DNA from: an uncultured bacterium
Lineage (GTDB): Bacteria > Omnitrophota > Omnitrophia > Omnitrophales > Abzuiibacteriaceae
Length of the DNA stretch: 64,000 bases
Direction: 5' to 3'
Assembly: GCA_964387845.1 (NCBI GenBank)
Contig: CAYLXA010000001.1
Coordinates: 290,627 to 354,626 of the forward strand
Shown: positions 4,237 to 37,444 of the stretch, in pieces
Numbering within the stretch: position 1 is the first letter of the stretch
How the letters are laid out: each line of letters starts with the position of its first letter
Position numbers and translations under genes: made by a program
The notes under the pieces: model-generated
Database searches by the model: none
What the model was told of the DNA's origin: nothing
Seen by the model: only the letters and a program-made list of their open reading frames with translations

Positions 4237-4342
4237 TGAATCAAATGGAAAAACAGGGTCAGGTGCCAAGGGTCATGGGTCAAGGCACAAATGAACGGTT
4301 ACTCTTGCCTTGACCCTTGCTACTTGCCCCTTGACCCTAAGA

Positions 4343-12493: not shown

Positions 12494-12584
12494 CCCTCTC
12501 CCTTTGGGAGAGGGCTAGGGTGAGGGATTTCTATAAATCCCACCACCCTCATCCTAACCTTCTCCCTCTAAAGAGGGAGAAGGG
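12494..12584. repeat. REP-like nested-hairpin element (family 1: CCCTCTCCC-N3/4-GGGAGAGGG plus GGGTGAGGG arms), copy 1
   Basis: CCCTCTCCCTTTGGGAGAGGG, GGGTGAGGGATTT..AAATCCCACCACCC, CTCCCTCTAAAGAGGGAG. It overlaps the last 9 codons (IPSPSLEGEG*) of the class IV aminotransferase gene. Confidence 0.6.
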
Positions 12585-13381
12585 ATAAATCGTTTCATTA
12601 ACCTGCTTGTTATAACGCCCGGAATTTCCGTGCCGATTTGACGGCCATCGAGCGACCGCACCGGCACGATGATACCTGTTGAATTGGTTAAAAAGGCTTC
12701 ATCCGCATTAAATACATCGTGACGCGTTAAGAAGGATTCTTCCGCCGAAATACCCAATTCGAGCGCATATTTTAACACAAAACGGCGGACGACTCCATTC
12801 AGGATTCCGGCTGTGGGAGGCGTTTTCAACGCGCCTTCCTTCACCATGAAGAAGTTCCAGACTCCGGCCTCGCGTACATACCCGTCTGGCCCCAGATAAA
12901 TCCGGTCAAACGAATCGGTACAATCTAAAAAAGCAAGCAGCCCATTGACCAGATCGCCTGATTTTGCTTCCGGCGGAACGCTGTTTGAGAGGTTGCGCCT
13001 CACAGCGGAAGTTTTAAGATCAACGCCTTCCCGATAAATCTTTTCGGGATAAGAGCGCACGGATACGATCGTGAAAATATTTTTCTCCGAAACAGCCAGA
13101 CGAATTGAATGGTTTGGATTTTCTTTGGCGATTTCGGCAAGTTCTTTTTCAATCCGTTCACGTTCGGTGGGAACTTCAATCCCTGAAGTTTTTGCGGATT
13201 CAAACAAACGGTCCAAATGTTCATTCAAATGCAGAATTTTACCGCTCCGGGATTGCATGGTTTCGAAAACGTTTAATCCAAGCTCCGCCGGCGATATTAT
13301 AGGAAGCTCTGCCGGTTTTATCTGTTTTCCGTTGATAAAGAGAAGCATATCCGTAAGTGACATGGGAAAAGTATAAAGCAA
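12554..13381 (-). CDS. Class IV aminotransferase family protein (PabC aminodeoxychorismate lyase / IlvE-like)
   Basis: 275 aa, fold-type IV PLP enzyme length. Its C-terminal 9 aa are encoded by the REP element. Lies 24 bp downstream of the giant ORF. Confidence 0.65.
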   Translation of the reverse strand: MLYTFPMSLTDMLLFINGKQIKPAELPIISPAELGLNVFETMQSRSGKILHLNEHLDRLFESAKTSGIEVPTERERIEKELAEIAKENPNHSIRLAVSEKNIFTIVSVRSYPEKIYREGVDLKTSAVRRNLSNSVPPEAKSGDLVNGLLAFLDCTDSFDRIYLGPDGYVREAGVWNFFMVKEGALKTPPTAGILNGVVRRFVLKYALELGISAEESFLTRHDVFNADEAFLTNSTGIIVPVRSLDGRQIGTEIPGVITSRLMKRFIPSPSLEGEG

Positions 13382-13404: not shown

Positions 13405-16400
13405 TTATGCGGAGTAGAAAACCTGCATTTGCGCGCGGAACTTGCCGACCAAATATGCCGCGGCTGATAATACATGGTCCACAAACGCTTGGTTCCAGAT
13501 TATGACCTTGTCTGCGATTTTTTCAAGAAATGGAACGGCAACCGCGTCATCTGAAACACCGATAATGGCCATGGAAAGACCGAGATTTCTAAGTTCGGCG
13601 CGCGCCTTGTGGTAATCCTCAACGGGAACAATCCTATTTTTTGGATTTGCAATGGTTGCATTAATCTCGTCGATGACGCGAAGCTCTGCGCGGTTTGTCA
13701 CGATCACCATGTAAGAACCGTAAACATCCGAAAGATTCCGGCCAACCACAGCCAGACTTCCCTTTTCGCCGAAGAAAGCGTTACGCGTAAACACTTTCCC
13801 TTCCCGCATCTCTGATCGATTTTGAAGTGCTGTAACAATCTGATTGTCAAAACTGCGAGCGTTTGACACAATCCGGCGCATTTCGCTTCTCGCTACCGGT
13901 GCAATCTCAGTTTGCAAATCTCGGAATAACGGATTTTCTTTGACTTCAACTCTTCCTTTAGCAATGGTTTTTTCAGTCTTTGCAATGACGCGGAAATTAA
14001 AAACTGTTTCACCCGAAACTTCGGACTGCACCTTGGCCATAATTAGCGGGAGCCCCAAAACTTCGCTTTGCACCTTGTCTCCGATTTCAGTATTATTGAA
14101 AGCATCTGCTTGATTTAGAATCGACTTTTCAATCGCGCTTTGAAAATCGATTGGTTTGATTTTTTGAAGGCTTTCCGGCAGCAATTCCTTGTTAATTTCG
14201 CCTTCCAAATGAATACTGACATCATAACGGCTTCCAATTGTCTTTTGAGCGATTGTAAAATTCCGGTGTTCGCTTGTTAGCGATTTGACGCCCGCCTGCT
14301 CATAAAATTGAGCATCAATAACGGGAACCTCGCGGTCTGCGATCTCTTCTAAAATCCGGACCGCGCGATGAATATATTTAGCGTGCCGGAAACTTCTTCG
14401 CTCATTTTCGCTCAGAGTCAAACTCCTGTTTTTCATCTGCAATTCCGAATACCAGCGCCGGAATAACTTCATAATTTGAATCAGCGAAAGCGGCTGGTTA
14501 GCGCCGAGCGGATTGGATGAATTTTGTTCGTAAATTCTATTAATATCTGTCTCGCTTTGAGCTGTCCAGCTTGATTTTTCCTGATTTAAAACCGCTTTAA
14601 GTACCGGAATATAAAAACCTGTGTCACGCTCAATCCACCAATTAAGCACATAAAGAGCGGCGAAGCGCGCAGATTGGCGCAGCATATCCGGATTAAAGTT
14701 TTTAGGCGCTACTTCAATGAGCGGTTTCCATTCATCAACCGGAATAACCGGTTCAGCTAAGTATTGAAGCAGTGTTTCGAGGCCAACCTCATTTCCTTTT
14801 CCAAGCTCATCGGCTCTTGTCTTCCGGATTGTAAAATTAGGATGCGACAAATTTCTAAGAAGTTTTTGCACCGAACGCAGTTCTGATTTTTGGCTGCCGG
14901 CATCAGGCCCAGGCATCGGCTCTGTCAATTTTTGGAAACGTTCGGCCAATTCGGTTTCTGAGATTTTAAACATTTCGTCAACAAACGCTTCGGAACCGCC
15001 AAGCTCCCCTCCGTCTTCTCCGAATAAACGGACTTCGACTAACTCATGAAACGCAACGGCAAATCTTTCGGCCGATATCCTTTCTTCATCCGTTTTGAAT
15101 TCAAACTGAAAAGCGAGACGCGTATCCTTAACCGCTTCAAGCGTCATCAAGGCCATCGGATTATCCGCTTCGATCCATTCAGCACTCCCTTTGTTCAGAT
15201 TTTTGATCTTAACAGAAACATTTTTTGCTAGGGCGGCTTGCGCCATTTCGACAATGAACATCGCTGGACTCGCATGGACACCTTGCCGGTTCTTGACCGT
15301 AACATTGATCTCAATGCTGTTACTTTCCCCTTCCCGCAATTCCGACATGTTTCTATCAGTCGGCGTTACGGACTTTTTATATTCATTAATCTGATGATCG
15401 AGAAAAGCTTCGTAACTATCAATGGCCTGGCTTGTTTGCGCCAACCACTCTTCTTCTTCTTTCAATAATAGGCCATGTTCTTCTTTCATTCCCTTCAAAG
15501 CAGACTTTGCTTTTCGAAGCTCTGGTAATATTCTGAGATAATAATCGTTCGCTTCCGCGGCTAGAGAATTGCCTCGATCCGAAACTGACAAAATAAAGCT
15601 GCTGAAACGATTCAACAAAACTTCCGTGCGGCTCAATAAAATCTTAATTCTGAGCTGCTGTTCATCCAAAGCGATTCGCCTCGGTTTGATAAGAGAATAA
15701 TAAAGGAGCGCTCCGACTCCTATGCCTATCGCGCCCGCTGAAATACCGATAACGGTATAATTTCGTAATTCAGAACGATGTTTAGGCGGACGGGGAAAAC
15801 TTTGAAAAGGCCCCCTGCGCGCAGCGCGGACAGCCTGAATTCTCGCCGTCACTTCTTCAATAGTATCTAAGTCACCGGCTAATTCTGCGTTATGAAGCTC
15901 GACTTCCAATCTTGCCAAATCCGTCGAGTGATGCGATTGGTCTACAGCAAACGGAAGCTCGATCGGCTCCTCATTTTCCAAATCATTGCGCAGTTCCGAA
16001 CGGACACCGGATTTTTCGCGAGGCGGCTGTTCAGATTTCGGCGGAACCGGGATCCATCCTTCCCACCGGCGGTAAACATGCGTAGGCCGCGTCCCTACTT
16101 CATTGGAAATATTTTTACCGCGCACGCCATGAACCTGATGGGCTTCATCACGCCGTAAAACTTCGGCTCTTTGTGCACGAAAATAATCATCCGTAAAATG
16201 AGTGATTTCGCCGGTTTTTAAGCCCGCGCGGCGCCAGTCAATGTGCCCTTCGGGATGAACAACACGCATATCTTTCTTCAGTACCTGCAAAGCTCCGGAA
16301 AATGCGGCGTGATTAAACAAAATAACTGTTTTCCCGCGATACTGCTCGTTCATGCGTTTCCAAAAAGCGGCGGCGCGGATGATTAAATGGGCAAAACTTT

Positions 16401-19400
16401 CGCCATGCTCAGGTTTCGCCAAAACACTCCACTTTTGATAACTTCGCGCGGCCTTGAATTGTTCCCGGCCAAACTGCGCCTTAATTTGCTCATTGGTGAG
16501 CCCTTCCCATTCGCCTTGAAAAATTTCTTTTGTATCGGGATCAATCATCACTTTCAGTTCAATTCCTAATTTTTCACGTACCAACCGGATAAATGGTTCT
16601 GCCGTATCCCGCACACGCCCAAGCGGATTAATGATCACCACAAACTGATCCGGATTTGCTGTGATTTGGTCTTTAAACTTTTCAAATAATTTTTCAGCGT
16701 CAGCTTGCGCTTGCACGCGCCCTTTTGGCGTCAACTGCGCGCCTTCGTTATCCATACCGCTTCCCTGAAACCTCTTTCTCCCTGTTCTTAGCCCTTCCGC
16801 AATGATGTGAGTTTCTCCGTGGCGGATAACGTAAAGATCCAGATCAAGCGCCGGTGGGAAATAAGGCTCTTTATAAAAAAGCTGCCCGGTCGATTGATTG
16901 ACCCAAAAACCCATTTGTTGCAATGTTTCGGAAACATTTTTTCGCAATTCCACCCTCGCCTTCATTAATAAATCCGGCTGTATTGCACTGGTCGGAACCA
17001 CAAGTTTGCCGTTTTCCCAATAGACCAGCGCACTCAAAAACTGGAACATGACCGGATCATGTTTTCTCACAAAATCAGGGTCAAGCCAGTAAAGAGACTG
17101 GGCTTCAAAGAAAAACTCTCGCGCAGAAACAATGCTGTATCGGCTCAAAAACTGCGTTTCAATTTCTTCTTGAGAATAATCAAGCACCTGCTTCTTTTTC
17201 CCAAATTGCCTTTCAAGTGCCTGCAGCCTAGTCTCATAAATCCGTTTTGCAATCTGATAAACTGCTGTTTTATCGTGTGGAATGTTCACAATAGAGAGTG
17301 GTAAATTTTTATTCGCAAAATGCTCTAAGCGCTCAAAGTTAATCGGCAGCGCATACTGATTATGCTCAACGAGCGTTTCCGCAAGTTCGTGAGTCAGGAG
17401 CCGTTCTAAATAAGTAAAGTCCTTATCCCTCACCTTCAAAAATTCATCGCTCACTGGCCCGTCATAGGAGATCGGATGATCGCCCGCATAAAGTGAAAGA
17501 AAGATCGATTTAACATTGGACAGCACAGGATGAAGGGAGTGATAGGTAACGCCTCCCAAATGATCTCCGTTGCGTCTTACGATAGAACGCGCAATAAATA
17601 CTTGGGCATTGAGCATTTTAAAAAGCGGTGCAATTGCAATGCCGGCCCTATGGCTTTCAAGGAAATGATTGAGCTGGCCATATAACTTACGCGCTAATCT
17701 CCAGTCGGTTTCACTGTTTAATCCATGCAATACATCAGTCCGAATATGTGCAGAAGAGCCTTGTAGATAACCCAAAACAATTTGACGCAATTCCGCCCTT
17801 GCCCCCTTTGAAGAAACATTTTCATGATCCGCTGGGGCCGAGGGGCTTTCTTGTAGTTCTTGCAAAATTAATATCACTTCGTCCGGAAGTCCTAATGCGC
17901 TTAAAGCATCCTTGGCGCTTTCGAGCTGATGAAAACTGAAATGATCCGCAAATCTTTCTGCGCGAGACTTATTTCCCAGCAACCCTGTCAAAAATGGGAT
18001 AGCCAACTCACGAAAATGAATGCACCATGGCTCCGCTTGAAGAATCCGGTTGGTCAGATAAAGCAGTTTTTTAAGCTGTTTAAACGATAAATCGCTATCT
18101 TGAAGCGCGGCACGGATTGCGTCATGGCCTGCATCCAACAACATAGTCTTAGGGGCAGCACTTTCCGCTTCGGAATTCCTGAGCTCGGAACGTATGGCTC
18201 TAGATTTAATAGCAACGCTGCCGAGATACACATTGCCGCTCTGGTGATAAAGAAGCGGGTTTTCGTGGCCATCCATGCTGATAACGTCTCCATCCGCGAT
18301 ATCACGGCCGGCGATGAGCCAAAGATGCTTTTCCGGCTGGAACACCATGTCCGGAACGCCATAAACGGCCGAAATGCCTTCTTTCTGCGCCAGCGTTTCC
18401 GCATGCACTGAAATGGTCTTCGCTAAAATATGAACCCCTTTTGGAATCCGGTTAATCATTTCGGGATTCACTCTGTCCAAGATCAAAATAACGCCGTCAA
18501 CATCCGCTCGGGGATGAGAAACAAGTTCGCCCAAAAGCTTTTCCGCTGCTTCTATCGAATTAGCCGCCAAACCGCGAATCGCACCGCCGCTCACGCCATG
18601 GCCGCGCGCAATCGGCTGATTGTCAGTCGAGTCGGCAAATTCCGGATATTGATCCGTCACAAAATCATCATTGCTTTGGACAATCCATATCTTTCCGCGC
18701 TCAATCGTGAATTCAAACTGCTGGTTGTAACGGAAAATGTTCTTGAGCTTACGCGCGTACTCGAACACTTGTGCGTAAAGCTCCGGCTGCAATGCTTCAA
18801 ATGTTTGTTCATCCGGCCGGATTCGCTCACCATTTCCGATTAAAATGTAATTTTGGCCGGCACGGCTCATCAATTGATCGCCGATCGAGTGAAACCGAAA
18901 TTTACCTTGGAGCACGTCATGGCCGTCCGGAAGTGTTCTCAAAACTGCGTGCCCCGCGCCTGAAATTTTCCCGTCATCAGTCGGCTTTAAATTTCCGAAA
19001 ACGCCTTTCTGCAGAATAACGACCGTTCCCCACTCTTGCGAAATCTGATGCCGTGTACGATACGCGCGTGCCTCTTCGGAGTCCCACGATGCATAAACCG
19101 CTTCGACTGCCATCATGACCTGATCCATCATGTCGTTTGGAATTATTTTGCCGTGCCGCGCCACGATTGCTTTGCACTGTTCCACCACTGCCTTCATGCC
19201 GTCTGCCGACAAATCTTCCTTTTCTTTAACATTCAAAACCTGCTCAAATTCCGCCTCAGGAATACCGAGCACATTGATCGAAAATGACCGGATAAATTCC
19301 GCGTAGGTGTCATACGCAAACCACGCATCGCCGCTTTTTTGGGCAAGCGCTTCGGCTTCCGCGTCGTTCATGCCCACATTCGACACAGTAGCCAAAAGGC

Positions 19401-25400: not shown

Positions 25401-28400
25401 AATAATCACGCAATCTTTTGTAATACAAAATTCCGGGCGCAATATTGAGCCGCGTGCTGATCAAAAAAGTTCCTGGCGCGATAATTCCCATCAAAATAAA
25501 AAACAAGGCAGCATTTGAAATGAGAGGATAAATGGTAAAAACGCCGAACCCGACCAGAAACGCGAAAGCGGTCGGCGCCACCCAAGCATAAATGGGCCTT
25601 GGCGGCTTTCTAAGGCCTTTCAAAATGCGTGGATTCATCGTGACAATGTCGAGAGCATCTGCAATGCTGATCCCGAGTGCGCGCCGCACTTTGGCAATTT
25701 CGGAAATTTTCATGCGGCTCAGGCGCGTGGCTTTCATAAATTTCTGAACCGCCATGAGTTTGTCAAAAGCGTCTTTTTTAAGACTGTCCCGCACCGCTTT
25801 GTCTTCGGAAAGCCTGCGCATAGCTTCTTGATTTGAGGCTGACCAGACTACGGCAATAACTTCTTCCGTTTTTTTCCGCTGGTCAGGCGAAAGTTTATCC
25901 AAAAACTTAAGCACATTGACGAGATCGCCGTCTTTAACGGACACGTTGTACAGAATTTCTTCAAAAAAGTACCGCAAATTCCGGTTTGGACTTGGAAAAT
26001 ATTCGAGCAACTTTTCAAGTTTCGCGATTGCGCGCGGAGGATAGCTCATTTTCTGCGCAACGGGATTTTCATTAATTTCAGCGAGAATGGTTTCGATAAA
26101 TTTTGGATATGCGCGGAGCTCGGATCGCTGCTCATCGGTTTTTTTTGCGATTGCCCTCCTTTCAGACTTATGCTGAAACCACCACATTCCTCCAAAAAGA
26201 AGCAGAAGCGGCGGGATCAAGGAAGCATTGTCCGTAAGCCAGGCAACGGGCCCGGTCACAACAAGAACAAGCGAGGCTGTAATTGCCTTAAGAAAATATT
26301 GTTTCCGGAACTTAAACCACCACGTTTTATACTGAGTCGGAAAAATCTTAACGCGGTTCGATGGTTGAATTAAATCCGTTACATAACCAATCACTTCACC
26401 TTTTGGGAAAGCATACTCCAAAGGCTCGACCGGATACCCATAAACGTCTAAATATTGTTTTTGGGAAGGATCGGCATATTCGATCGATACAAGCTCGGGC
26501 TGTTTGCCGGATTTCTTAACATAATCGACAAGCCTCTTAGGCCCTTGATTGAGCGGATAAGCAAAATAAAGAACTGATTTAAATCCGCATGCCCGGGCAT
26601 AGTTCTCGATGATTTTTTGAATTCCCTTCGCCTTTGCATCAAAAATTCGCCCCTCCACACCGTCCACAAATAAAATCGGCTGTTCTTTTCCGTCTTGATC
26701 CTTATAAATCGCGGCGGCGATTCTGGCCCGTACCCGGCGGCCTTCGCGCGTACGGAAATCAATCGCTGAAATACTTTTGTTGTGCAAATAATTAAACGGG
26801 CCCAGCGCACCTTTTGTTCTCCGGTTTAATTTGTCAAGCCACGTGTTGCCGCGAAGCGACGCCGAAGAAAAGAAATCCTTTTGATTGGTTAAATCAAACC
26901 ACGGATCGCGCCGCCAAATCCGGGCTTCTACAATTGAGTCCGGTAAATTTCCCCAATCGTCAATCTTGGAGATACTTTTCTGAAGGTATTGATTGGCCTT
27001 CGCGGCATTGGGGTTTACATATTGGCCCAGCTCTTGCAGCAACTTTTTTCCTTCCTCGACAGGCAATTCACCTCTTTTATTCCTGGCCAATTCTTCTTTG
27101 TGCGCATTGAAAAATTGAGTGACCGACTTCTTACCCTCCTTTAAATTGGGCGTGTACTGTCCGGGCTTAAACTGGCGGTCTTCGGTTGAACCCAAAAAAT
27201 CCCTGAGTATTTTCTGGATAAACTCGGGGATGGTTTGATTTTCCGCGTCTTCGAATTCCCCTGCCGGTACTTTTTCAATATTATCCCCGCGAATTTGATA
27301 ATAGACTTTGTAATCCGGATTATCCCAATTTTCGTTGATGCCGACCGATTTGAGACGCTCCATGGTTTGAATCGCTGCCTCGGTCTGGTCAAACCATTGC
27401 CGGTAACTTCGCCGCTTAAGCATGGAGGCCAGATCCAACGCGGAAATTGTTTTCCACGAAAAAATGAACATTCGTTTCGCAAATACCGCCAAAATGTAAA
27501 CCAAGGCTGTGAAACCTGACGCCACAAACAAGCTTTCAATCCATCCTGCGGGATCAGAATTGTTGATCATTTCCCTAATATTTAAGCTTGCTAAATTTCC
27601 ATCCATCCAAAAAGAAATAGCGGAATAGAAAATTGTGAGCGCTGCGCGTTGAACCGAAGCATAGAAATATCCAATAACGCCAGTGAAGGAAACCGCGAGA
27701 AGATGCAGCCACGGGTTCTGAATGAGCGCCGTACGGGCGTGCGCAATCCGTGCGCGTTCTAATTTTTCTTCGTTAATTTTGTTCAAGTCAATCTTTAAAC
27801 TTTTAAACTTTTTCCACAAAAATTTCAGCTCCGGGAAACCGTCTTTCTCCATCCGCTCGTCGATTTCGGCAATGGTGAGATCTGAATTCTCACGCAGTTC
27901 ACTGGCTGCCTTTGGATTTTTGCTTTTTCCGTTTCCGGAAAAAGCGTTGCGCGTCAGAACACCGATCGTTTTAAACACCAGCGCGGTGTTATAAAGTGCC
28001 GACCGGTCCCGGATATCGTTTAACTCCAGCTCTATGTCATGCGTGTCCATGCCAAACTTTCCGGTTCCGATACCCCGCTTTAGAGCGCTTGAGCTGAGAA
28101 AACCCGGCTTGGTGTGATGTAAAACACTTTCGATATAATTTTGATCAACTTCCAAAGGTAAGCGCGGCCTTGGCCCAAACCATTGCATGTCACCGCGGAC
28201 AATCGACAAGAGCTGCGGAAGCTCATCAAGCCCCGTTCTGCGCAAAAACCATTCGTAAGGCGTAATGCTTTCATCTGAAATGTTGAAATCAAGTTTCATG
28301 GTTTTAATTTTTCGTATCACAATCGTCTTGCCCTGAAAACCGATTCGCTCTTGAATAAAAAACATGGGGCCGCTTGTGATAATTTTCCGGATAAAGGCAA

Positions 28401-31332
28401 GCAAATAAACCAGCGGAAGAGTTAAAACCCACAAAACGAGCGCTGTGATTCTCCCTGCCGCCTCGGACAGATCAGGTTTCTTTGCCGCGGGAAGCGATAA
28501 AGCATTGGTTTCCTTCAAGCGCAATTCCGAGCGCGCTTTATCGATGTCGTTCGATTGAGAAGCCGAAGTCGGTATTTCTCCGGTTGGGTGATTGCTGCTT
28601 ACCGCATTTGCTTTTCCTTTTGAATGCAAATAAAAGGTGCCGACGGCGGATGTTAAATGTCCCAATCCGGCCAGAAGCACAACCTCGTTTGAATCTTTTC
28701 TGGATCCAAGATACGCGGTTTCTGCCATAAAAGATCCTCTGTCTTTTGCTTTGTCGTTGGGATGTGTCAAATAATCAGGGGCGAATAACTGGTGCGACTC
28801 GATAGATTTCAACCATTTGGTAAAAAGCAGAATGAGAGAAACCACAAGAAACCACGGTGCAAAAAATGCAGCTATTAAACTATCCCGAAGCGAATCCCCA
28901 TGATCAAATATTTCACTGCCAACCTGCAATTTGTAAAGCAGGCGAAAATTTCGCTCGTGAAAAAATGGGATGCCTTCTCTCGCTAAGAAATAAGATAACT
29001 CCCGTACTTTTTTCTTGTTTAGCAGCATAAATTCAGAACCATGCACAATGCCAATCACATGAAAAGTACGCCCGCCGATTTTGACCATCTTACCGGAAAA
29101 ACCAAAGCGTTCCGCAATCGGCGAATCTTGAAATTGCGCCATGGTTTCAGAAGCCGCCTTTCGCCAAATTGGAGTAGCGAAGTCTGAAAATACTCGGCGG
29201 TGATAACCGATATTTTTGCCTAAAAGACCGGCTTTTTTAAATTTCTGAAACAATTCGATGGGTTTTGATGATTCAATCATCCAAGTTCCGATAGTCCTTT
29301 CTGAAATTTTTAATTCACCCGCTCGATCCCAAAATTGTTTCTCAGACGGGTAACGTAAAACATTGATCAATAGCGGGAGGATAAACTTTTGAACAAAATC
29401 AGCGTAGGTAAAATTGAAACTTAAGAGAACCACATTCGCCAAAAGCCACGTGATAAAAATACTAATGGGAAAGCCAAACCGTGAAAGACTTAGCTGCATA
29501 AGTGCCTGTTTAATGCTTGATAAAAAATGAGCTGCGAGTGGATAGGTTTTGGGGAATAGAAGCATTAAAATCAAGGATCCCGACATTGCGGCTATCCCGT
29601 AAAATAAAAATGGAATAGCTTTCATCCCGATTTTTAATAGATGCTTCCGCTTTGCATCCGGGCTCCCGTTCTTGAGTCTAGATTCAGCATGAATGACATC
29701 CCCGGTTACCCGCAATTCCGACCGAGGCGCGGTTGGCGACAAGTGCAATTCCGAGCGCGGCTCTGCGCTTGCGGCAAACTCGTCAGGAATGACCGGCGAT
29801 TCCAATAAGATATCCGATACATAATCGGCAGCAGTGCGGCGAACAACCGGGTCGGAATCACCAGCAGCAATAGCCATAACGGAAACAGCGCGCCAGTCGT
29901 GGTGGCGCGTTTGGTACAAGTAATCAAGTAAATTCAGAAGTTTGATTTTAAATTTTTGGAGATGCGGGTTTGGGGTGCTTGATCCCGATTGAAGTTCCAG
30001 AGCTTCTGAAAATGTGGCAAACAAAATATCGGGCGATACTTCATACAAAGAAAATTTTGAGTCGTAAGCCAGCAAATGTTCAATTCGGTCGATGATTGCA
30101 AAATTTCCACTTTGATATGCATTATAGAAATTGATCATGATTTGGCCCGCAACAATTCGCTGAACTAATTTTGAAACTTCCCCGCCCGTTACTTTAAAAT
30201 AATATTTTTTTCTGGCTTTGAGCCCATCCAATTCGAATAACTCCCGCAGATTTTCTTCCACTTCCCTCTTGATTCTTTCAAATTCTATCCTTTTTTCAGA
30301 AAGAACATCTTCGAGCGGTTTTTGAGCGGCTTCCAAATTTTCCGTGGCTGGTATTTTCAGCTTTGGTTCTTTTTGGCCGGGCTGAGTAGAAAACTGAGAA
30401 CACCCGACCGAAGCTAGTCCGATTAAAGAGAACAACTGAATCAATTTCAATATTTTGAATGCGCGCAGCTCTGAGGATTGAGATATTTTTGTGTAAACTT
30501 GAAAACTGGAGGAGCTATCCGGATGGATCTTGACTGTAACGCGTGAAAAATCGGGAGATGAAAAATAAGGCATCAATTCATGCTCAACGCCATAGTTGAC
30601 CAATTTTCCGCCGGCTTTGAGATTTCTTTTGATCGTACTGGCTAGCCGCGCACGATTAGCTGTGCCATAACTATAATAATAGACAATATCAGCTTGCTGC
30701 AAAAGCGCGGTCCAGCGCGTGTCATTAAAATCTCCGCGCAAAAATTCTACTTGGCCTTTTTTGATAATCCCGCGCTCCTCGGCCACAGAAAGTAACCGGA
30801 GACTGTCTGCGTAGAGATCCGGATCATATTCGATGCCGGTGATTTTTAAATTCGGATAACGGTGAGCAAGCATCAATGCATAAGCGCCCTGGCCATGGCC
30901 CAAGTCCACCATGGTAACCGGCTGGTCATGCGGGATCGGAAATTTTTCGACCGTTGCATTTATCGAATCAAGCCGGGTCTGTAGGTGAACGCCTTTTTCC
31001 GTGCGCCGGAGCTGAGCTGAGCTAAAATCAACTCCGGAATTTCGGAACAAAAGGCCGAGCACTTCCCTTGGATCCCTGGCCAATTCGACTGCTCGCAATT
31101 CCGAGCGCGGCTGAGTGTTTAATTTAACTGTGCCGCGGGCGATGGTGGGTAAATCCAGATCCAGAATACCGCCATGCTGATTGGCTAAGCGATGGACTCC
31201 GACGGTGGTGAAATTATTTTTGAAGGATTCCGCGATCACAGACGAATCGCCGTAAGCGATCGTGCTGGTAACTGAAAAGGTAAGGACAAGTGTCAGAGCA
31301 ACACTTTTTAAAAGATATGAGTTTAACTTCAC
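13405..31332 (-). CDS. Giant 5975-aa multi-module protein. In order: signal peptide, SAM-dependent methyltransferase, lipoprotein-like signal, TM-rich regions, PglC/WbaP-type bacterial sugar transferase, PPDK/PEP-synthase-like ATP-grasp plus phosphohistidine module, histidine phosphatase (RHG), HPr-like domain. Modules are separated by recurring RSELR motifs.
   Basis: One uninterrupted 17,928-nt ORF, GTG start at 31332, N-terminus MKLNSYLLKSVALTLVLTFSVTSTIAYG. MTase motif I MVDLGHGQGAYAL ... LRGDF. Sugar transferase SGPMFFIQERIGFQGKTIVIRKIKTM ... DELPQLLSIVRGDMQWFGPRP. PPDK_N-like RSGSAFMLPGLLATVSNVGMND and mobile-His region GHGVSGGAIRG ... TISVHAETLAQKEG. Histidine phosphatase LYVIRHGETH ... 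EIFQGEWEG. HPr-like NRQGVHASPAMFIVEMA. Confidence 0.7.
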   Translation of the reverse strand: MKLNSYLLKSVALTLVLTFSVTSTIAYGDSSVIAESFKNNFTTVGVHRLANQHGGILDLDLPTIARGTVKLNTQPRSELRAVELARDPREVLGLLFRNSGVDFSSAQLRRTEKGVHLQTRLDSINATVEKFPIPHDQPVTMVDLGHGQGAYALMLAHRYPNLKITGIEYDPDLYADSLRLLSVAEERGIIKKGQVEFLRGDFNDTRWTALLQQADIVYYYSYGTANRARLASTIKRNLKAGGKLVNYGVEHELMPYFSSPDFSRVTVKIHPDSSSSFQVYTKISQSSELRAFKILKLIQLFSLIGLASVGCSQFSTQPGQKEPKLKIPATENLEAAQKPLEDVLSEKRIEFERIKREVEENLRELFELDGLKARKKYYFKVTGGEVSKLVQRIVAGQIMINFYNAYQSGNFAIIDRIEHLLAYDSKFSLYEVSPDILFATFSEALELQSGSSTPNPHLQKFKIKLLNLLDYLYQTRHHDWRAVSVMAIAAGDSDPVVRRTAADYVSDILLESPVIPDEFAASAEPRSELHLSPTAPRSELRVTGDVIHAESRLKNGSPDAKRKHLLKIGMKAIPFLFYGIAAMSGSLILMLLFPKTYPLAAHFLSSIKQALMQLSLSRFGFPISIFITWLLANVVLLSFNFTYADFVQKFILPLLINVLRYPSEKQFWDRAGELKISERTIGTWMIESSKPIELFQKFKKAGLLGKNIGYHRRVFSDFATPIWRKAASETMAQFQDSPIAERFGFSGKMVKIGGRTFHVIGIVHGSEFMLLNKKKVRELSYFLAREGIPFFHERNFRLLYKLQVGSEIFDHGDSLRDSLIAAFFAPWFLVVSLILLFTKWLKSIESHQLFAPDYLTHPNDKAKDRGSFMAETAYLGSRKDSNEVVLLAGLGHLTSAVGTFYLHSKGKANAVSSNHPTGEIPTSASQSNDIDKARSELRLKETNALSLPAAKKPDLSEAAGRITALVLWVLTLPLVYLLAFIRKIITSGPMFFIQERIGFQGKTIVIRKIKTMKLDFNISDESITPYEWFLRRTGLDELPQLLSIVRGDMQWFGPRPRLPLEVDQNYIESVLHHTKPGFLSSSALKRGIGTGKFGMDTHDIELELNDIRDRSALYNTALVFKTIGVLTRNAFSGNGKSKNPKAASELRENSDLTIAEIDERMEKDGFPELKFLWKKFKSLKIDLNKINEEKLERARIAHARTALIQNPWLHLLAVSFTGVIGYFYASVQRAALTIFYSAISFWMDGNLASLNIREMINNSDPAGWIESLFVASGFTALVYILAVFAKRMFIFSWKTISALDLASMLKRRSYRQWFDQTEAAIQTMERLKSVGINENWDNPDYKVYYQIRGDNIEKVPAGEFEDAENQTIPEFIQKILRDFLGSTEDRQFKPGQYTPNLKEGKKSVTQFFNAHKEELARNKRGELPVEEGKKLLQELGQYVNPNAAKANQYLQKSISKIDDWGNLPDSIVEARIWRRDPWFDLTNQKDFFSSASLRGNTWLDKLNRRTKGALGPFNYLHNKSISAIDFRTREGRRVRARIAAAIYKDQDGKEQPILFVDGVEGRIFDAKAKGIQKIIENYARACGFKSVLYFAYPLNQGPKRLVDYVKKSGKQPELVSIEYADPSQKQYLDVYGYPVEPLEYAFPKGEVIGYVTDLIQPSNRVKIFPTQYKTWWFKFRKQYFLKAITASLVLVVTGPVAWLTDNASLIPPLLLLFGGMWWFQHKSERRAIAKKTDEQRSELRAYPKFIETILAEINENPVAQKMSYPPRAIAKLEKLLEYFPSPNRNLRYFFEEILYNVSVKDGDLVNVLKFLDKLSPDQRKKTEEVIAVVWSASNQEAMRRLSEDKAVRDSLKKDAFDKLMAVQKFMKATRLSRMKISEIAKVRRALGISIADALDIVTMNPRILKGLRKPPRPIYAWVAPTAFAFLVGFGVFTIYPLISNAALFFILMGIIAPGTFLISTRLNIAPGILYYKRLRDYLSERLRKTGHVSAIEKKMQAIGINVSEFEKGRVYENKEKGIRIRIHDKKTLKGAIDFLTSSEAIGNCISLQHFVSWILPSLLSDDGIILADIDHKGSGDAYQHRAQMWMIASEDNGDPVLTVNSFEFNNDGAKYFDELMPEAIQILQDVARRSGFKKIYAGITNYGRDYLDQHYSQGASRNTIKKIHDPEAGFQYHFDAFRYRWLARDFVLKKSRSFTERAYAIIFGLFELTKGNRAKARAFFDSARNARNFWEIPLQGQTAAPQSELLRSELRNQTAQAVNTDPVQTLHALIISKLSVKNIKRFFTVDVLKEFLETQNLNAQGIIKALRGKITLNTSQANQILNLIREFRLLNPDSPSFDVVEWFWVSYWPKLKYLVEKASLNDLNRLEAVETFNQVLRPLSPDFDAAFSFGHKDLISIYDIGKIGTKIADDILIPRGLIVDIVNGSGLLVGKIIKRESQRSAAGRFVPVYTVRLKSRDGKSDSYLSAFAKDRHIVIIEGTDVPSIENFDYYQNLKKLYETGQYQFPNFDQSPVAYLRDWIQMHFYSLGDYGYVAQLYRSGVLEEELSHSDAYVFANEFYKGENDYSTSLYWINVMKAILRPGSLLAHALGGYEGDQQGLLAHAYFEVEAKLNELIRSSYPAQILFPYLNPVLPVSDAMRAALDQEDPLYKVAFVQLLMLLSDEFFGEMTIEPKQWLDFLKKEITDLDRFNRKIREAAKRAYEKQFFTLEERRQILKNRSELRQTAAVTQRSKVDQVMDVIRDLMDQAGSPNKIYDSLTEGDILEALTFLLSPHDSNRFWPRSGSEDRRIYWSKVLPEGFSNRELRELGVELRREWENRGLDKKFGNLNQFLATLIDPYFKDLDEFEKFAGRLDHLLAGGLEDLFYAYWTLGLTQVIHLRPTGLHIEEFDGKEIKKPSDNELLADYVKRFISVVSAWPEERLADIPPSTRKFSQSYPGFTYRNLMLWALSVMLDQDVHDWKFGYRSTDLGVKIFSLKYGARFWPDDTKRRTGKQSMTEYLSRMLTDVPELDQNGVETGRKISNEKIEKLVAEVLSRNESDWVRLGFRSPWDVSEVQASMLIRTIGDRSKNPLRDAVLTLPLPNLQDPELNVGINTSAPVYLKYAPLPRHLIFPTQAAFIHRRKEAVRRRLFFGEPFRTLFPNLKTLTAQKRSELRSDGRTNPMSYKEFEKALRDYQTLMKLSFGRGGKHLSFEQNQAVGARKEAIIDLLKKNSKEHLQNLIREFILKADLPLDKKQSYLWYVSSAMSPDRYRMTDAFFKEHLIPIYLSKTNSPEENRIFLELAAAYFNEHYIKADIHHDLEATFRQASPDDLGKLIHLLLHLRTIGHEFFRELISILLSVSPADPLAAAFVAAQGLVRDIPSEGRKRIEYPQMSLYLLHQPNARAAYFYLMKVIEAERKGGVSTDNSQDRIISYSRRLDNNASYPGEFGRGWFSHFRDGIHRNLNRSDFENTRRVLAYWLTLDESILKESNWTLLRDDMTKDFNPATLQTYSKLLNRFVKALAAKGKISKSDPEAFLDEILDIPEREVVAIYEEANRDEDVSEIDYERVQLMTQLYLAFADHFGTRVATIVPFLKGETEDLRDGGYLKKKMTAITRFMREDYDRLLMLIDSDDHAAIFSAIVKVQNDLKEFLLSGEENQKKVLGQAEKSIGRDGEDSADEDADDIDQEWNDMHEEGDYLYDLRTLVEMSEKLSILASEKIAHVQEKIEKINSVDDLRRELPNLIALGRFIQASGLGGVDFDQLMVELDSGSIKASQLYDLVHTLEAEVHKITRQLNNTMRAAMQYSLDEVGYHDLAKLWREHTSLFKIKTKTEDDQTYQIYDFPPEGKERLEAAVIDELIRNSGATAFDRALMKFDAVLASALSQGQDEAIREDAGAERPDDFEQHLYRFGENETDERPELLSLWSKKGLNLIRMTHERIPVPPGVILSAKLVTKPDIFRSDEFRQKIAAEIERLKRYSEYPDLKLILYARSGSAFMLPGLLATVSNVGMNDAEAEALAQKSGDAWFAYDTYAEFIRSFSINVLGIPEAEFEQVLNVKEKEDLSADGMKAVVEQCKAIVARHGKIIPNDMMDQVMMAVEAVYASWDSEEARAYRTRHQISQEWGTVVILQKGVFGNLKPTDDGKISGAGHAVLRTLPDGHDVLQGKFRFHSIGDQLMSRAGQNYILIGNGERIRPDEQTFEALQPELYAQVFEYARKLKNIFRYNQQFEFTIERGKIWIVQSNDDFVTDQYPEFADSTDNQPIARGHGVSGGAIRGLAANSIEAAEKLLGELVSHPRADVDGVILILDRVNPEMINRIPKGVHILAKTISVHAETLAQKEGISAVYGVPDMVFQPEKHLWLIAGRDIADGDVISMDGHENPLLYHQSGNVYLGSVAIKSRAIRSELRNSEAESAAPKTMLLDAGHDAIRAALQDSDLSFKQLKKLLYLTNRILQAEPWCIHFRELAIPFLTGLLGNKSRAERFADHFSFHQLESAKDALSALGLPDEVILILQELQESPSAPADHENVSSKGARAELRQIVLGYLQGSSAHIRTDVLHGLNSETDWRLARKLYGQLNHFLESHRAGIAIAPLFKMLNAQVFIARSIVRRNGDHLGGVTYHSLHPVLSNVKSIFLSLYAGDHPISYDGPVSDEFLKVRDKDFTYLERLLTHELAETLVEHNQYALPINFERLEHFANKNLPLSIVNIPHDKTAVYQIAKRIYETRLQALERQFGKKKQVLDYSQEEIETQFLSRYSIVSAREFFFEAQSLYWLDPDFVRKHDPVMFQFLSALVYWENGKLVVPTSAIQPDLLMKARVELRKNVSETLQQMGFWVNQSTGQLFYKEPYFPPALDLDLYVIRHGETHIIAEGLRTGRKRFQGSGMDNEGAQLTPKGRVQAQADAEKLFEKFKDQITANPDQFVVIINPLGRVRDTAEPFIRLVREKLGIELKVMIDPDTKEIFQGEWEGLTNEQIKAQFGREQFKAARSYQKWSVLAKPEHGESFAHLIIRAAAFWKRMNEQYRGKTVILFNHAAFSGALQVLKKDMRVVHPEGHIDWRRAGLKTGEITHFTDDYFRAQRAEVLRRDEAHQVHGVRGKNISNEVGTRPTHVYRRWEGWIPVPPKSEQPPREKSGVRSELRNDLENEEPIELPFAVDQSHHSTDLARLEVELHNAELAGDLDTIEEVTARIQAVRAARRGPFQSFPRPPKHRSELRNYTVIGISAGAIGIGVGALLYYSLIKPRRIALDEQQLRIKILLSRTEVLLNRFSSFILSVSDRGNSLAAEANDYYLRILPELRKAKSALKGMKEEHGLLLKEEEEWLAQTSQAIDSYEAFLDHQINEYKKSVTPTDRNMSELREGESNSIEINVTVKNRQGVHASPAMFIVEMAQAALAKNVSVKIKNLNKGSAEWIEADNPMALMTLEAVKDTRLAFQFEFKTDEERISAERFAVAFHELVEVRLFGEDGGELGGSEAFVDEMFKISETELAERFQKLTEPMPGPDAGSQKSELRSVQKLLRNLSHPNFTIRKTRADELGKGNEVGLETLLQYLAEPVIPVDEWKPLIEVAPKNFNPDMLRQSARFAALYVLNWWIERDTGFYIPVLKAVLNQEKSSWTAQSETDINRIYEQNSSNPLGANQPLSLIQIMKLFRRWYSELQMKNRSLTLSENERRSFRHAKYIHRAVRILEEIADREVPVIDAQFYEQAGVKSLTSEHRNFTIAQKTIGSRYDVSIHLEGEINKELLPESLQKIKPIDFQSAIEKSILNQADAFNNTEIGDKVQSEVLGLPLIMAKVQSEVSGETVFNFRVIAKTEKTIAKGRVEVKENPLFRDLQTEIAPVARSEMRRIVSNARSFDNQIVTALQNRSEMREGKVFTRNAFFGEKGSLAVVGRNLSDVYGSYMVIVTNRAELRVIDEINATIANPKNRIVPVEDYHKARAELRNLGLSMAIIGVSDDAVAVPFLEKIADKVIIWNQAFVDHVLSAAAYLVGKFRAQMQVFYSA

Positions 31333-36751: not shown

Positions 36752-37291
36752 CTACCCAATCTTCCCGGGCCGATGCGGATCCATCTCAAAACCAATCGCA
36801 TCCGTAGTCGGCGGCGCCAAAAGCGGCCTAATCATTTTGAACAATCTCTGCAAAGCTCTGTCGTGATCGAGCAGAACCTTCTCAATTTCATCCAATCGTC
36901 CGTGCAGAATTTGATTCAGGTTGAAAACTTCTCTCAATCTCACAAAAGCACGGATCACGTAAACGCTCATACGGACAGCTCGGTCACTGTTTAAAATGTT
37001 GGCTGCCATTAACGCCCCGTGTTCTGTGAAAGCAAAAGGAAGATACCGATCGCCACCCCGACCCTCTTTCTTTGAGGTCACAATCTGTGACCTCAAAAAT
37101 TCTGCTTCCTCCAGAGTAAGCTGAAACATGAAATCTGCCGGAAAACGGCTTCGGTTACGTTTGACAGCTTGATTGAATGCTTTTGTGCTCACCCCATAAA
37201 GCTCCGCTAAGTCACGGTCAAGAATAACGCTCTGACTCCGGATGATGAGAACACGATTTTCTACAGCTAATTTAGGACCTCTTTTAGACAT
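36752..37291 (-). CDS. ORF6N / KilA-N-family DNA-binding-domain protein (family seen on phages and mobile elements)
   Basis: MSKRGPKLAVENRVLIIRSQSVILDRDLAELYGVSTKAFNQAVKRNRSRFPADFMFQLTLEEAEFLRSQIVTSKKEGRGGDRYLPFAFTEHGALMAANILNSDRAV is the typical ORF6N-domain signature (from memory). Confidence 0.55.
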   Translation of the reverse strand: MSKRGPKLAVENRVLIIRSQSVILDRDLAELYGVSTKAFNQAVKRNRSRFPADFMFQLTLEEAEFLRSQIVTSKKEGRGGDRYLPFAFTEHGALMAANILNSDRAVRMSVYVIRAFVRLREVFNLNQILHGRLDEIEKVLLDHDRALQRLFKMIRPLLAPPTTDAIGFEMDPHRPGKIG

Positions 37292-37444
37292 GAAACACCC
37301 CTCTTATTGGTTTTAAATGGAGGGGGGATTTTAATTTTGTTTTTTACTGCGGGAGATATGGAATTATATATAACTTTTACGATTAATCAACACTCAACTT
37401 CTAGCCTGTCCCCTTAGAAGGTGCCTGGCACTTTTTTTATGAGA

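What the first reader, a model, noticed from the sequence alone, without database searches (positions are those of the whole stretch)
14872..31110. A pentapeptide R-S-E-L-R (with variants) recurs about 22 times in the giant protein, mostly at module boundaries
Seen directly: at least 14 exact SELR occurrences plus RSELH, SELL-RSELR (tandem), SEMR x2, RAELR x3, RVELR. Examples by minus-strand coding coordinates: 31094-31110 PRSELR; 29743-29760 PRSELH and 29710-29727 PRSELR (tandem pair); 28519-28536 ARSELR; 27889-27903 SELRE; 26111-26127; 24580-24611 SELLRSELR; 23171-23184; 21874-21888; 18178-18192; 15988-16002; 15762-15779; 15334-15348 MSELR; 14872-14889. Codons vary (CGC TCG GAA TTG CGG; CGT TCC GAG CTC AGG; CGT TCT GAA TTA CGA; AGT GAA CTG CGT), so conservation is at the peptide level, not from a DNA repeat. 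Chance recurrence of a 5-mer this many times in about 6000 aa is negligible. The motifs bracket recognisable units tightly. ARSELR sits about 25 aa before the sugar-transferase TM helix and ASELR about 10 aa after its C-terminal ...VLTRNAFSGNG end. MSELR sits just before the HPr-like domain and KSELR about 50 aa after it. This is what a polyprotein with a repeated protease-recognition or linker motif would look like. I know of no described bacterial system using an RSELR processing site.
Basis: partly seen in the sequence, partly recalled or inferred. Interest (0 to 1): 0.9.

Follow-up and report, generated by a model that had tools for sequence, protein, structure and literature searches.

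The report
Junction motif in bacterial giant polyprotein
A 5,975-residue bacterial protein is built from about 17 unrelated protein-sized units joined by the five-residue signature R-S-E-L-R, and the same signature separates the units of dozens of giant multi-enzyme proteins in Omnitrophota bacteria, so these are probably polyproteins cut at defined sites, which has not been described for them.

Summary
The ORF at 13405-31332 (minus strand, 5,975 aa) has 14 SELR (0.19 expected) and 21 sites fitting [R/x]-[S/A/V]-E-[L/M]-[R/H]. The other 34 ORFs of the window have no SELR. Codons vary as in the rest of the gene and the flanks are not conserved, so selection acts on the peptide.

The motif is not private to this gene. 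In 77 giant ORFs from Omnitrophota genomes, R-[S/A]-E-hydrophobic-R occurs 405 times (5.5 expected). Segments between sites have protein-like lengths (median 385 aa). Homology blocks start and stop at the sites. Hydrophobic helices sit just after sites and almost never just before. Residue 4 is genome-specific across separate giant genes, and a few relatives use other junction words (GASLG, GFGA).

Best reading (confidence about 0.55): a polyprotein whose junctions are recognised, and probably cut after the second Arg, by a co-evolving factor. The candidate enzyme is a TraB/TIKI-fold module: residues 642-911 here, an N-terminal domain in most relatives. Cleavage itself is untested. I found no description of this motif in the searchable literature.

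The parts
13405..31332 (-). Giant ORF, 5,975 aa plus stop: the putative polyprotein
   Evidence: The identical protein is present in an NCBI assembly on a 409-kb contig.
31249..31332 (-). N-terminal signal-peptide-like segment (aa 1-28, KLNSYLLKSVALTLVLTFSVTSTIAYG)
   Evidence: hydropathy scan; read from the sequence
31093..31107 (-). junction motif RSELR (aa 76-80)
   Evidence: aligns with RSELR 2983 of P0004
30598..30909 (-). SAM methyltransferase domain (aa 142-245) inside unit aa 81-285
   Evidence: Pfam Methyltransf_25/11; homologous unit in P0004, also bracketed by RSELR
30463..30477 (-). junction motif SSELR (aa 286-290)
30397..30462 (-). internal lipoprotein-like signal sequence starting directly after the motif (aa 291-312, AFKILKLIQLFSLIGLASVGC)
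29743..29757 (-). junction motif RSELH (aa 526-530), first of a tandem pair
29710..29724 (-). junction motif RSELR (aa 537-541), second of the tandem pair
28600..29409 (-). TraB/TIKI-fold module (aa 642-911) of unit aa 542-933, preceded by two hydrophobic helices. Candidate processing enzyme.
28519..28533 (-). junction motif RSELR (aa 934-938)
   Evidence: The 23 residues before it have pLDDT < 50. Positional counterpart of AASLG 5421 in P0003.
27955..28449 (-). small phosphoglycosyl (sugar) transferase, Bac_transf (aa 962-1126), in unit aa 939-1142
   Evidence: Pfam PF02397 1.1e-27, profile positions 7-177 of 179
27892..27906 (-). junction motif ASELR (aa 1143-1147)
26113..26127 (-). junction motif RSELR (aa 1736-1740)
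24580..24594 (-). junction motif RSELR (aa 2247-2251), preceded by the degenerate copy SELL
23170..23184 (-). junction motif RSELR (aa 2717-2721)
   Evidence: The following unit is homologous to units of L066 and L067 that are also bounded by RSE[LM]R.
21874..21888 (-). junction motif RSELR (aa 3149-3153)
18193..19686 (-). pyruvate-phosphate-dikinase-like N-terminal part (aa ~3883-4380), at the C-terminal end of unit aa 3154-4380
   Evidence: TIGR01828 and PF01326; homologous to P0002 2583-3040
18178..18192 (-). junction motif RSELR (aa 4381-4385)
   Evidence: aligned with RSEVR 3034 of P0002
17785..17799 (-). junction motif RAELR (aa 4512-4516)
16942..16956 (-). junction motif RVELR (aa 4793-4797)
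16288..16836 (-). histidine phosphatase domain (aa 4833-5015) in unit aa 4798-5110
   Evidence: Pfam His_Phos_1 1.8e-20
15988..16002 (-). junction motif RSELR (aa 5111-5115)
15763..15777 (-). junction motif RSELR (aa 5186-5190), followed after 1 residue by a hydrophobic helix
15334..15348 (-). junction motif MSELR (aa 5329-5333)
15088..15312 (-). HPr-like phosphocarrier domain (aa 5341-5415) in unit aa 5334-5481
   Evidence: Pfam PTS-HPr 5.5e-8, profile positions 2-68 of 81
14875..14889 (-). junction motif KSELR (aa 5482-5486)
13876..13890 (-). motif RSEMR (aa 5815-5819)
13804..13818 (-). motif RSEMR (aa 5839-5843)
13678..13692 (-). motif RAELR (aa 5881-5885); may lie inside a folded C-terminal domain
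   Evidence: the alternation of hydrophobic and polar stretches is read from the sequence
13588..13602 (-). motif RAELR (aa 5911-5915); may lie inside a folded C-terminal domain
13408..13467 (-). family-typical C-terminal tail ending ...FRAQMQVFYSA-COOH
   Evidence: 23 of 25 complete relatives end in [S/A]-A, often with a motif copy 13-19 aa before the end

Best explanation
The giant ORF encodes a polyprotein of about 17 protein-sized, mutually unrelated units. The identifiable ones are a methyltransferase, a lipoprotein-like unit, a membrane TraB/TIKI-fold unit, a PglC-type sugar-phosphate transferase, a pyruvate-phosphate-dikinase-like unit, a histidine phosphatase and an HPr. Many others match no known family. 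The units are joined by short, poorly ordered linkers that each carry R-[S/A]-E-[L/M]-R.

The pentapeptide is the recognition site of a dedicated factor that co-evolves with it. That factor is most likely an endopeptidase that cuts after the second Arg (P1 = Arg, P2 = hydrophobic, P3 = Glu, small P1'). Cutting would release the units, several of which then expose their own N-terminal signal or anchor helix.

The candidate enzyme is the TraB/TIKI-fold module inside the protein (aa 642-911). In most relatives a different TIKI-superfamily domain heads the polyprotein.

Shown: the motif and its enrichment; selection on the peptide; its position at unit boundaries; its family-wide and genome-specific behaviour; the fold assignments.

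Inferred: that the site is cut, which bond is cut, and which enzyme cuts it.
For: (1) Enrichment is about 70-fold, both in the window and in 77 Omnitrophota giant ORFs (405 sites against 5.5 expected).
(2) Synonymous codons are used freely and the DNA flanks are not conserved.
(3) Inter-site segments have protein-like lengths: median 385 aa, interquartile range 230-560. They fall into 316 BLAST clusters, so they are unrelated units.
(4) BLAST alignments between different giants start and end at the sites: starts 29 against about 5 expected, ends 22 against about 3. In the window, the methyltransferase, PPDK-like and sugar-transferase units carry junction motifs at the same places as their homologues.
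(5) Hydrophobic helices are depleted in the 50 aa before a site (1 against 16) and enriched in the 100 aa after it (57 against 25). In the window, helices start 0, 1, 19 and 30 aa after a site.
(6) Residue 4 is genome-specific across separate giant genes: 25/25 Leu over five genes, 26/26 Leu over three, 16/21 Ala, or mostly Val (chi-square p = 3e-30). The same sugar-transferase unit follows RSELR here and AASLG in P0003. The word therefore follows the genome, not the unit, as expected for a trans-acting reader.
(7) There is a small-residue preference just after the motif (Ser 2.7x, Thr 3.1x, Ala 1.6x) and no other flank conservation. This is typical of a protease subsite pattern.
(8) Tandem sites are frequent: 50 of 360 gaps are under 40 aa.
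(10) The 23 residues before RSELR 934 are predicted disordered.
Against: - There are no protein-level data, so no cleavage product has been seen.
- The TIKI superfamily also contains esterases and haem-binding proteins. Pfam's TraB model does not match either domain. Foldseek against the PDB is not significant for the window module.
- The near-universal presence of the N-terminal TIKI-like domain in the 77 ORFs follows from how they were retrieved. The independent sample is only 4 proteins plus the window.
- Most heads look like signal peptide plus exported domain, yet many units are enzymes that need cytoplasmic substrates, so where cutting would happen is unclear.
- Some giants in motif-rich genomes have few sites (L023, L036).
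- The four C-terminal sites of the window protein may lie within a folded domain.
- No protease gene lies nearby in the window.
Confidence: 0.55

Rival explanations
1. The motif is an uncleaved linker signature. It would be a short linear docking site in the junctions of a giant protein that stays in one piece, bound by a co-evolving partner such as a chaperone, a membrane insertase, a scaffold or another part of the same protein.
For: Everything that shows a trans-acting, co-evolving reader at unit boundaries fits this as well. A motif-like copy is embedded in the conserved C-terminal tail of the family, and four copies sit in what looks like a folded C-terminal domain of the window protein. 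This suggests binding rather than cutting at those places. A 2026 preprint treats these proteins as single membrane-anchored polypeptides.
Against: Signal- and anchor-like helices directly after sites (0-30 aa) only make sense with a free N-terminus or as many internal anchors. The protein-like segment lengths, the tandem sites 6-40 aa apart and the small-residue preference at the position after the motif fit a cleavage site better. Ser-to-Ala exchange is tolerated, so the Ser is not a modification site.
Confidence: 0.25
2. The motif is a peptide-encoded translational event, such as 2A-like skipping of a peptide bond or programmed ribosome stalling and release. Separate products would then arise with no protease.
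For: One ORF, many protein-sized units and a short conserved junction peptide.
Against: The conserved element is only 5 residues with unconserved flanks, whereas known skipping and arrest peptides are longer. The word differs between genomes (Leu, Val or Ala at position 4; GASLG or GFGA in some relatives).
Confidence: 0.05
3. The motif is a DNA-level footprint: a scar or target site of a recombination system that inserts gene cassettes in frame.
For: Units are shuffled between giants, and the same unit is found at different positions.
Against: Each motif position uses 5-6 synonymous codons, in proportions like the gene's general codon usage, and there is no similarity in the 30 nt on either side. 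All six Arg codons and all six Ser codons occur.
Confidence: 0.02
4. The recurrence is chance, a composition effect or part of one repeated structural unit.
For: None beyond the somewhat Arg-, Glu- and Leu-rich composition.
Against: Shuffles give 0.19 SELR against 14 observed. The neighbouring ORFs have none. The intervening segments belong to different families.
Confidence: 0.005

Closest known systems
Viral polyproteins with an embedded protease (picornavirus 3C, potyvirus NIa-Pro, coronavirus main protease). Named from my own knowledge.
   Same: One ORF encodes many unrelated mature proteins. A short, lineage-specific consensus sits at every junction, with a small residue after the scissile bond. 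Sites and reader co-evolve. Small spacer peptides lie between close sites.
   Different: This is a chromosomal bacterial gene among core-metabolism genes. The candidate enzyme has a TIKI/TraB fold rather than a chymotrypsin-like or papain-like fold. Cleavage is unproven.
MARTX toxins: giant bacterial toxins whose effector domains are released by an internal cysteine protease cutting after Leu between domains. Named from my own knowledge; RRSP is described in PMC6254334.
   Same: A giant bacterial protein, an array of unrelated functional domains, processing at short inter-domain sites, and a TIKI-fold domain (RRSP) in the same architecture.
   Different: Pfam finds no RTX repeats and no C80 protease domain. 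The units are mostly metabolic or housekeeping-type enzymes. The motif differs. In MARTX the TIKI-fold domain is cargo, not the processing enzyme.
TIKI/TraB/PrgY/erythromycin-esterase/ChaN superfamily
   Different: There is no sequence-level match to Pfam or the PDB. No member is known to process a polyprotein. Activity is unknown.
Omnitrophota giant proteins of the 'multi-enzyme metabolic cluster' class (bioRxiv 10.64898/2026.06.07.730766), and the giant genes of West-Roberts et al. (bioRxiv 10.1101/2023.11.21.568195)
   Same: Many unrelated Pfam domains tile one very long polypeptide that has a signal peptide and many transmembrane helices. The window protein shares units, the junction motif and the C-terminal tail with Omnitrophota ORFs.
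   Different: The 2026 preprint holds none of the words motif, cleav-, polyprotein, linker, junction or processing in its main text. West-Roberts et al. speculate about cleavage by C39 or S8 domains and state that information about cleavage points is absent. At 5,975 aa the window protein is below the 10,000-aa threshold of the 2026 survey.
Bacterial surface polyproteins with defined cleavage motifs (Mycoplasma hyopneumoniae P97/P102 adhesins, S/T-x-F|x-D/E; Porphyromonas gingipain precursors cut at Arg/Lys). Named from my own knowledge.
   Same: Cellular bacterial proteins cut at a recurring short motif.
   Different: Those release a few related adhesin or protease fragments, not about 17 unrelated proteins, and they are not a genome-wide family with a common head and tail.

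Membership tests
Omnitrophota multi-unit giant proteins with R-[S/A]-E-x-R junctions (family defined here) | Many unrelated protein-sized units in one ORF | tested here: met
   Five different Pfam families plus many segments with no match
Omnitrophota multi-unit giant proteins with R-[S/A]-E-x-R junctions (family defined here) | Recurrent R-[S/A]-E-hydrophobic-R at unit boundaries | tested here: met
   21 sites in the window protein; 405 in 77 relatives
Omnitrophota multi-unit giant proteins with R-[S/A]-E-x-R junctions (family defined here) | N-terminal IQDAH...EEG...AEYAH...GGFH domain | tested here: not met
   A profile HMM built from 81 copies finds nothing in the window protein. hhalign against the aa 542-934 unit is negative.
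Omnitrophota multi-unit giant proteins with R-[S/A]-E-x-R junctions (family defined here) | C-terminal tail ending in hydrophobic-x-x-[S/A]-A-COOH | tested here: met
   The window protein ends ...QVFYSA; 23 of 25 complete ORFs end in [S/A]-A
Omnitrophota multi-unit giant proteins with R-[S/A]-E-x-R junctions (family defined here) | Shared homologous units with other members | tested here: met
   Units aa 2722-3148, 685-910, 68-245 and 3964-4387 match L066/L067, L081, P0004 and P0002
Omnitrophota multi-unit giant proteins with R-[S/A]-E-x-R junctions (family defined here) | Host is a member of phylum Omnitrophota | tested here: inconclusive
One neighbouring ORF is 58% identical to a gene of an Omnitrophota MAG.
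TIKI/TraB/PrgY superfamily (for aa 642-911) | alpha/beta TIKI fold | tested here: inconclusive
TIKI/TraB/PrgY superfamily (for aa 642-911) | Conserved His/Glu catalytic-type residues (GxxH ... E ... GxxH) | tested here: met
   H117, G120, H123, G124, E152, D169, R224, G248 and H251 are invariant in 9 homologues
TIKI/TraB/PrgY superfamily (for aa 642-911) | Match to the curated family model (Pfam TraB_PrgY_gumN) | tested here: not met
   No Pfam hit at E <= 5 for the unit or at E <= 1 for its homologues
TIKI/TraB/PrgY superfamily (for aa 642-911) | Endopeptidase activity | not testable with these tools
   Needs biochemistry
Protease-processed polyprotein (viral type) | Conserved short motif at every junction between independent proteins | tested here: met
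Protease-processed polyprotein (viral type) | Junctions are actually cleaved | not testable with these tools
   No proteomic data available
MARTX toxin | RTX-type repeats and a C80 cysteine protease domain | tested here: not met
   No such Pfam or NCBIfam matches

The most novel reading that the evidence does not exclude
Omnitrophota express a sizeable part of their proteome as membrane-tethered polyproteins. A TIKI/TraB-fold endopeptidase carried by the polyprotein itself cuts them at a genome-specific pentapeptide (R-S-E-x-R, or GASLG or GFGA in some lineages). This would be a cellular counterpart of viral polyprotein expression, with site and enzyme co-evolving across dozens of genes per genome.
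Probability: 0.3. Interest if true: 0.95.

Novelty: new variant of a known kind. Interest (0 to 1): 0.85.

Why it matters
Whether the giant proteins of Omnitrophota work as single chains or are cut into many products is an explicitly open question. [quoted passage not shown]

A five-residue junction signature under strong peptide-level selection, present hundreds of times and tuned genome by genome, gives concrete predicted cut sites. This makes the question directly testable by proteomics or a reporter assay. It lets giant ORFs be split into units for annotation and structure prediction. It also reinterprets internal signal-peptide calls, which the 2026 survey downgraded in its chunked analysis of the longest proteins.

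If cleavage is confirmed, it would be the first large-scale polyprotein strategy for ordinary cellular enzymes in bacteria, and a new role for the TIKI/TraB fold.

Tried and rejected
- **DNA repeat or recombination scar:** rejected by codon spread and unconserved flanks.
- **Other frames or strands:** the motif exists in one frame only.
- **N-terminal family domain hidden in the window protein:** the HMM and hhalign are both negative.
- **Word-indexed homologue search with the aa 542-934 unit:** nothing found. The exhaustive HMMER scan found 16 proteins, mostly giants.
- **Sequence searches of the PDB with both TIKI-like domains:** nothing relevant.
- **Foldseek against the PDB for the window module:** not significant. 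The AlphaFold-database library was unavailable.
- **Orthologue search in metagenome contigs with aa 4798-5490:** none, so position conservation could only be tested at unit level.
- **First attempt to scan genomes with the divergent 4-sequence alignment:** failed.
- **Lipobox regular expression after motifs:** too few hits to test.
- **Remnant start Met after the motif:** only weakly enriched, 3.2% against 1.9%.
- **Nearby protease gene in the window:** none found.
- **Organism name:** not retrievable.
- **Literature search for 'RSELR':** matched only the software name varSelRF and similar strings. One broad search was uninformative.
Full report
**1. The observation**

The window holds a single uninterrupted ORF at 13405-31332 on the minus strand, 5,975 aa. 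The identical protein is on record from an NCBI assembly, on a 409-kb contig.

SELR occurs 14 times and RSELR 10 times. In 1,000 residue shuffles the mean is 0.19 SELR (maximum 3) and 0.55 for [SA]E[LM]R, against 19 observed. With the variants RSELH, RSEMR x2, RAELR x3 and RVELR there are 21 credible sites (coordinates). GVELR at aa 2808 and EVELH at aa 5144 look like chance matches.

The other 34 ORFs of the window (13,771 aa) contain no SELR, and the motif exists in only one of the six frames. Each motif position uses 5-6 different synonymous codons, in proportions like the gene's general usage. The 30 nt on either side of the sites show no similarity. Selection is therefore on the peptide, not on DNA.

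**2. What the protein is made of**

Pfam and NCBIfam recognise the following:

| Domain | Residues |
|---|---|
| SAM methyltransferase | 142-245 |
| small sugar-phosphate transferase (Bac_transf) | 962-1126 |
| pyruvate-phosphate-dikinase-like N-terminal part | ~3883-4221 |
| histidine phosphatase | 4833-5015 |
| HPr | 5341-5415 |

The remaining roughly 85% matches nothing. No motif falls inside any match.

- The sugar-transferase unit (aa 939-1142, 204 aa) contains almost the whole Bac_transf profile (positions 7-177 of 179). By my recollection of PglC-type enzymes, about 200 aa is the size of a complete small phosphoglycosyl transferase.
- HPr starts 7 aa after MSELR.
- Hydrophobic helices begin 0, 1, 19 and 30 aa after four motifs. 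The one after SSELR (AFKILKLIQLFSLIGLASVGC) looks like a lipoprotein signal sequence in the middle of the chain.

The gene sits among ordinary core genes, all but one of them on the same strand. It lies between a pabB-like gene and a class IV aminotransferase gene. The rest of the window carries TCA-cycle, PEP carboxylase, cytochrome c maturation, ribonucleotide reductase, mnmE and purH genes. There is no protease gene nearby.

**3. Relatives**

A search with aa 1-5000 found only four other proteins, all giants of 3,395-7,365 aa from Omnitrophota or Elusimicrobia MAGs.

- P0004 has 12 RSELR between entirely different units.
- P0002 has a few RSE[V/M]R.
- P0003 has 15 copies of a different word, [G/A][A/S/Q]SLG, instead.

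All four begin with a shared domain of about 400 aa (IQDAH...EEG...GGFH). Scanning one genome per species with that domain returned 79 loci, nearly all from Candidatus Omnitrophota and often several per genome.

The ORFs headed by the domain are mostly so long that they run off the 10-kb flank. In 77 ORFs (216,422 aa), R-[S/A]-E-[LMVIFA]-R occurs 405 times against 5.5 expected from composition. The other 382 ORFs in the same loci have 33, mostly in other very long ORFs that are the tails of upstream giants.

The logo from 349 RSExR sites shows no flank conservation, apart from small residues just before the motif and Ser, Thr or Ala just after it. Position 4 is Leu 33%, Val 27%, Met 19%, Ala 15% and Ile 6%.

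**4. Are the sites unit boundaries?**

- **Segment lengths.** Segments between sites have a median of 385 aa (interquartile range 230-560). The 484 segments fall into 316 BLAST clusters, so they are unrelated protein-sized units.
- **Alignment ends.** For alignments between different giants (<= 70% identity, head domain excluded, n = 119), starts fall within -20 to +3 aa of a site 29 times against about 5 expected. Ends fall within -3 to +10 aa 22 times against about 3 expected.
- **Hydrophobic helices.** They are almost absent in the 50 aa before a site (1 against 16 expected) and enriched in the 100 aa after it (57 against 25).
- **Window-specific cases.** RSELR 76 aligns with RSELR 2983 of P0004, and both methyltransferase units end at the next RSELR (205 and 203 aa). 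RSELR 4381 aligns with RSEVR 3034 of P0002. The sugar-transferase homology starts 7 aa after RSELR 934 in the window and 9 aa after AASLG 5421 in P0003.
- **Other giants.** Pfam matches in four other giants also stay within inter-site segments; I checked this explicitly for L059.
- **Disorder.** In the structure model of the window's aa 642-934, the last 23 residues before RSELR have pLDDT < 50.

**5. Evidence for a trans-acting, co-evolving reader**

Residue 4 is genome-specific and uniform across separate giant genes of one genome:

| Genome (MAG) | Position 4 |
|---|---|
| C24_metabat.bin.98 | 25/25 Leu in five genes |
| SRP342105_co1_457 | 26/26 Leu in three genes |
| ERP113451_co3_34 | 16/21 Ala |
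| Ca. Taenariivivens | mostly Val |

The chi-square test gives p = 3e-30. Some relatives use RAEVR (L004, L079), [S/A]GFGA (L031, 11 copies) or GASLG (P0003). The word follows the genome, not the unit. That is what site-enzyme co-evolution produces in viral polyproteins, and it is hard to explain by inheritance with each unit.

**6. A candidate enzyme**

The window protein lacks this head. However, its unit aa 542-933 carries HVIGIVHG, FFHERNF and AGLGH signatures.

- An exhaustive HMMER scan finds homologues of this unit in only 16 proteins, mostly giants. Among them, P0060 (6,806 aa) has 21 motif matches (22 counting one KSEVR), P0061 has 7-9 and P0062 has 10-12.
- A 9-sequence alignment has invariant H117, H123, E152, D169, R224 and H251.

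Weak points: Pfam's TraB model does not match. Foldseek against the PDB is not significant. The superfamily also contains non-proteases.

**7. Mechanism proposed, and its rivals**

Most likely (about 0.55), the ORF is a polyprotein and R-[S/A]-E-[L/M]-R is the cleavage signal of a dedicated endopeptidase. I place the cut after the second Arg because of the Ser/Thr/Ala preference at the next position, and because a cut there would free the signal- or anchor-like helices that follow several sites. The TIKI/TraB-fold unit is the best candidate enzyme (about 0.3). All of this is inference.

Rivals:
- An uncleaved docking motif for a co-evolving partner (about 0.25). It is favoured by motif-like copies inside the conserved C-terminal tail and in the probably folded last 160 aa of the window protein.
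- A translational skipping or stalling peptide (about 0.05). It is disfavoured by the 5-residue size and the genome-specific variants.
- A DNA-level scar (about 0.02).
- Chance.

An unresolved problem for the cleavage model is topology. The heads look like signal peptides followed by an exported domain, whereas many units need cytoplasmic substrates.

**8. Comparison with what is known**

The closest functional analogues are viral polyproteins and MARTX toxins. The protein is not a MARTX toxin: it has no RTX repeats and no C80 domain.

It belongs to the class of Omnitrophota 'multi-enzyme' giant proteins surveyed in a 2026 preprint. That text holds no mention of a motif, cleavage, linker, junction or processing, and in its chunked analysis of the longest proteins it downgrades internal signal-peptide calls.

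West-Roberts et al. [quoted passage not shown] Full-text searches for the motif and for Omnitrophota polyproteins found nothing else.

The giant proteins are known. The junction signature, its genome-specific variants and the TIKI-like head and unit appear to be undescribed.

**9. Verdict**

- Interest: 0.85.
- Novelty: a new variant of a known kind (polyprotein processing), in a cellular bacterial setting and possibly with a new class of processing enzyme.

Noticed in passing
window 13408-13467 (aa 5956-5975); C-termini of L003-L062, P0002-P0004: 23 of 25 complete giant ORFs, including the window's, end in hydrophobic-x-x-[S/A]-A-COOH (...VFYSA, ...IQWSA, ...IESAA). Five further upstream giants whose tails are in the loci end the same way. 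Many carry a motif copy 13-19 aa before the end (for example RSEIRAFVEALLQNFVVVSTAA). This may be a C-terminal recognition tag of the kind read by PDZ-domain or ClpX-type proteases.
   Followed up: partly
L031 (ORF 3,467 aa); P0003; L004, L079: Some relatives use other recurring junction words in place of RSExR: [S/A]GFGA x11 in L031, [G/A][A/S/Q]SLG x15 in P0003, and RAEVR in L004 and L079.
   Followed up: partly
L009, L014, L049, L076 (5' parts of the loci): Giant ORFs lie in tandem on one strand. One ends in ...[S/A]A and the next begins with the TIKI-like head domain.
   Followed up: partly
window 12554-13381 and 31459-32952: The giant gene sits exactly between a chorismate-binding (pabB/trpE-like) gene and a class IV aminotransferase (pabC-like) gene, which would normally be neighbours. 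This suggests insertion into that pair.
   Followed up: no
window 14890-19686 (aa ~3883-5481): A PPDK-like nucleotide-binding part that seems to be followed by a phosphohistidine-type segment, a histidine phosphatase and an HPr all lie in the C-terminal third of one polypeptide. This could be a PEP- or ATP-driven phosphotransfer set.
   Followed up: no
window 31108-31240 (aa ~31-75): After the signal peptide, the short first unit (SSVIAESFKNNFTTVGVHRLANQH...) faintly resembles the start of the family head domain (IEESFQG.SGKTIIYIQDAH). It may be the remnant of a deleted head.
   Followed up: no
window 36752-38113: A small ORF6N-domain gene and a HEPN/AbiU2-like gene form a possible defence or toxin pair among the core genes. 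The adjacent myo-inositol-1-phosphate synthase gene (35362-36471) is the only sizeable non-overlapping ORF on the plus strand.
   Followed up: no
P0013, P0017, P0023 (about 430-446 aa): The head domain also exists as stand-alone proteins that end about where the first junction motif lies in the giants. P0013 ends in ...GKAA.
   Followed up: partly
P0059, P0064, P0066: Three highly repetitive proteins (20-45 copies of a unit) matched the window's aa 542-934 unit in many short stretches. Their nature was not examined.
   Followed up: no
P0065 (aa ~70-300): This homologue of the TraB-like unit lacks RSExR but repeats the stretch PGIRGHRR..SEVVDPFG twice. It ends in ...LAAAA.
   Followed up: no
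window 61287-62777: A NapC/NirT-type multihaem cytochrome ORF is 58% identical to a gene in locus L058 from an Omnitrophota MAG. This is the only taxonomic hint obtained for the window.
   Followed up: partly
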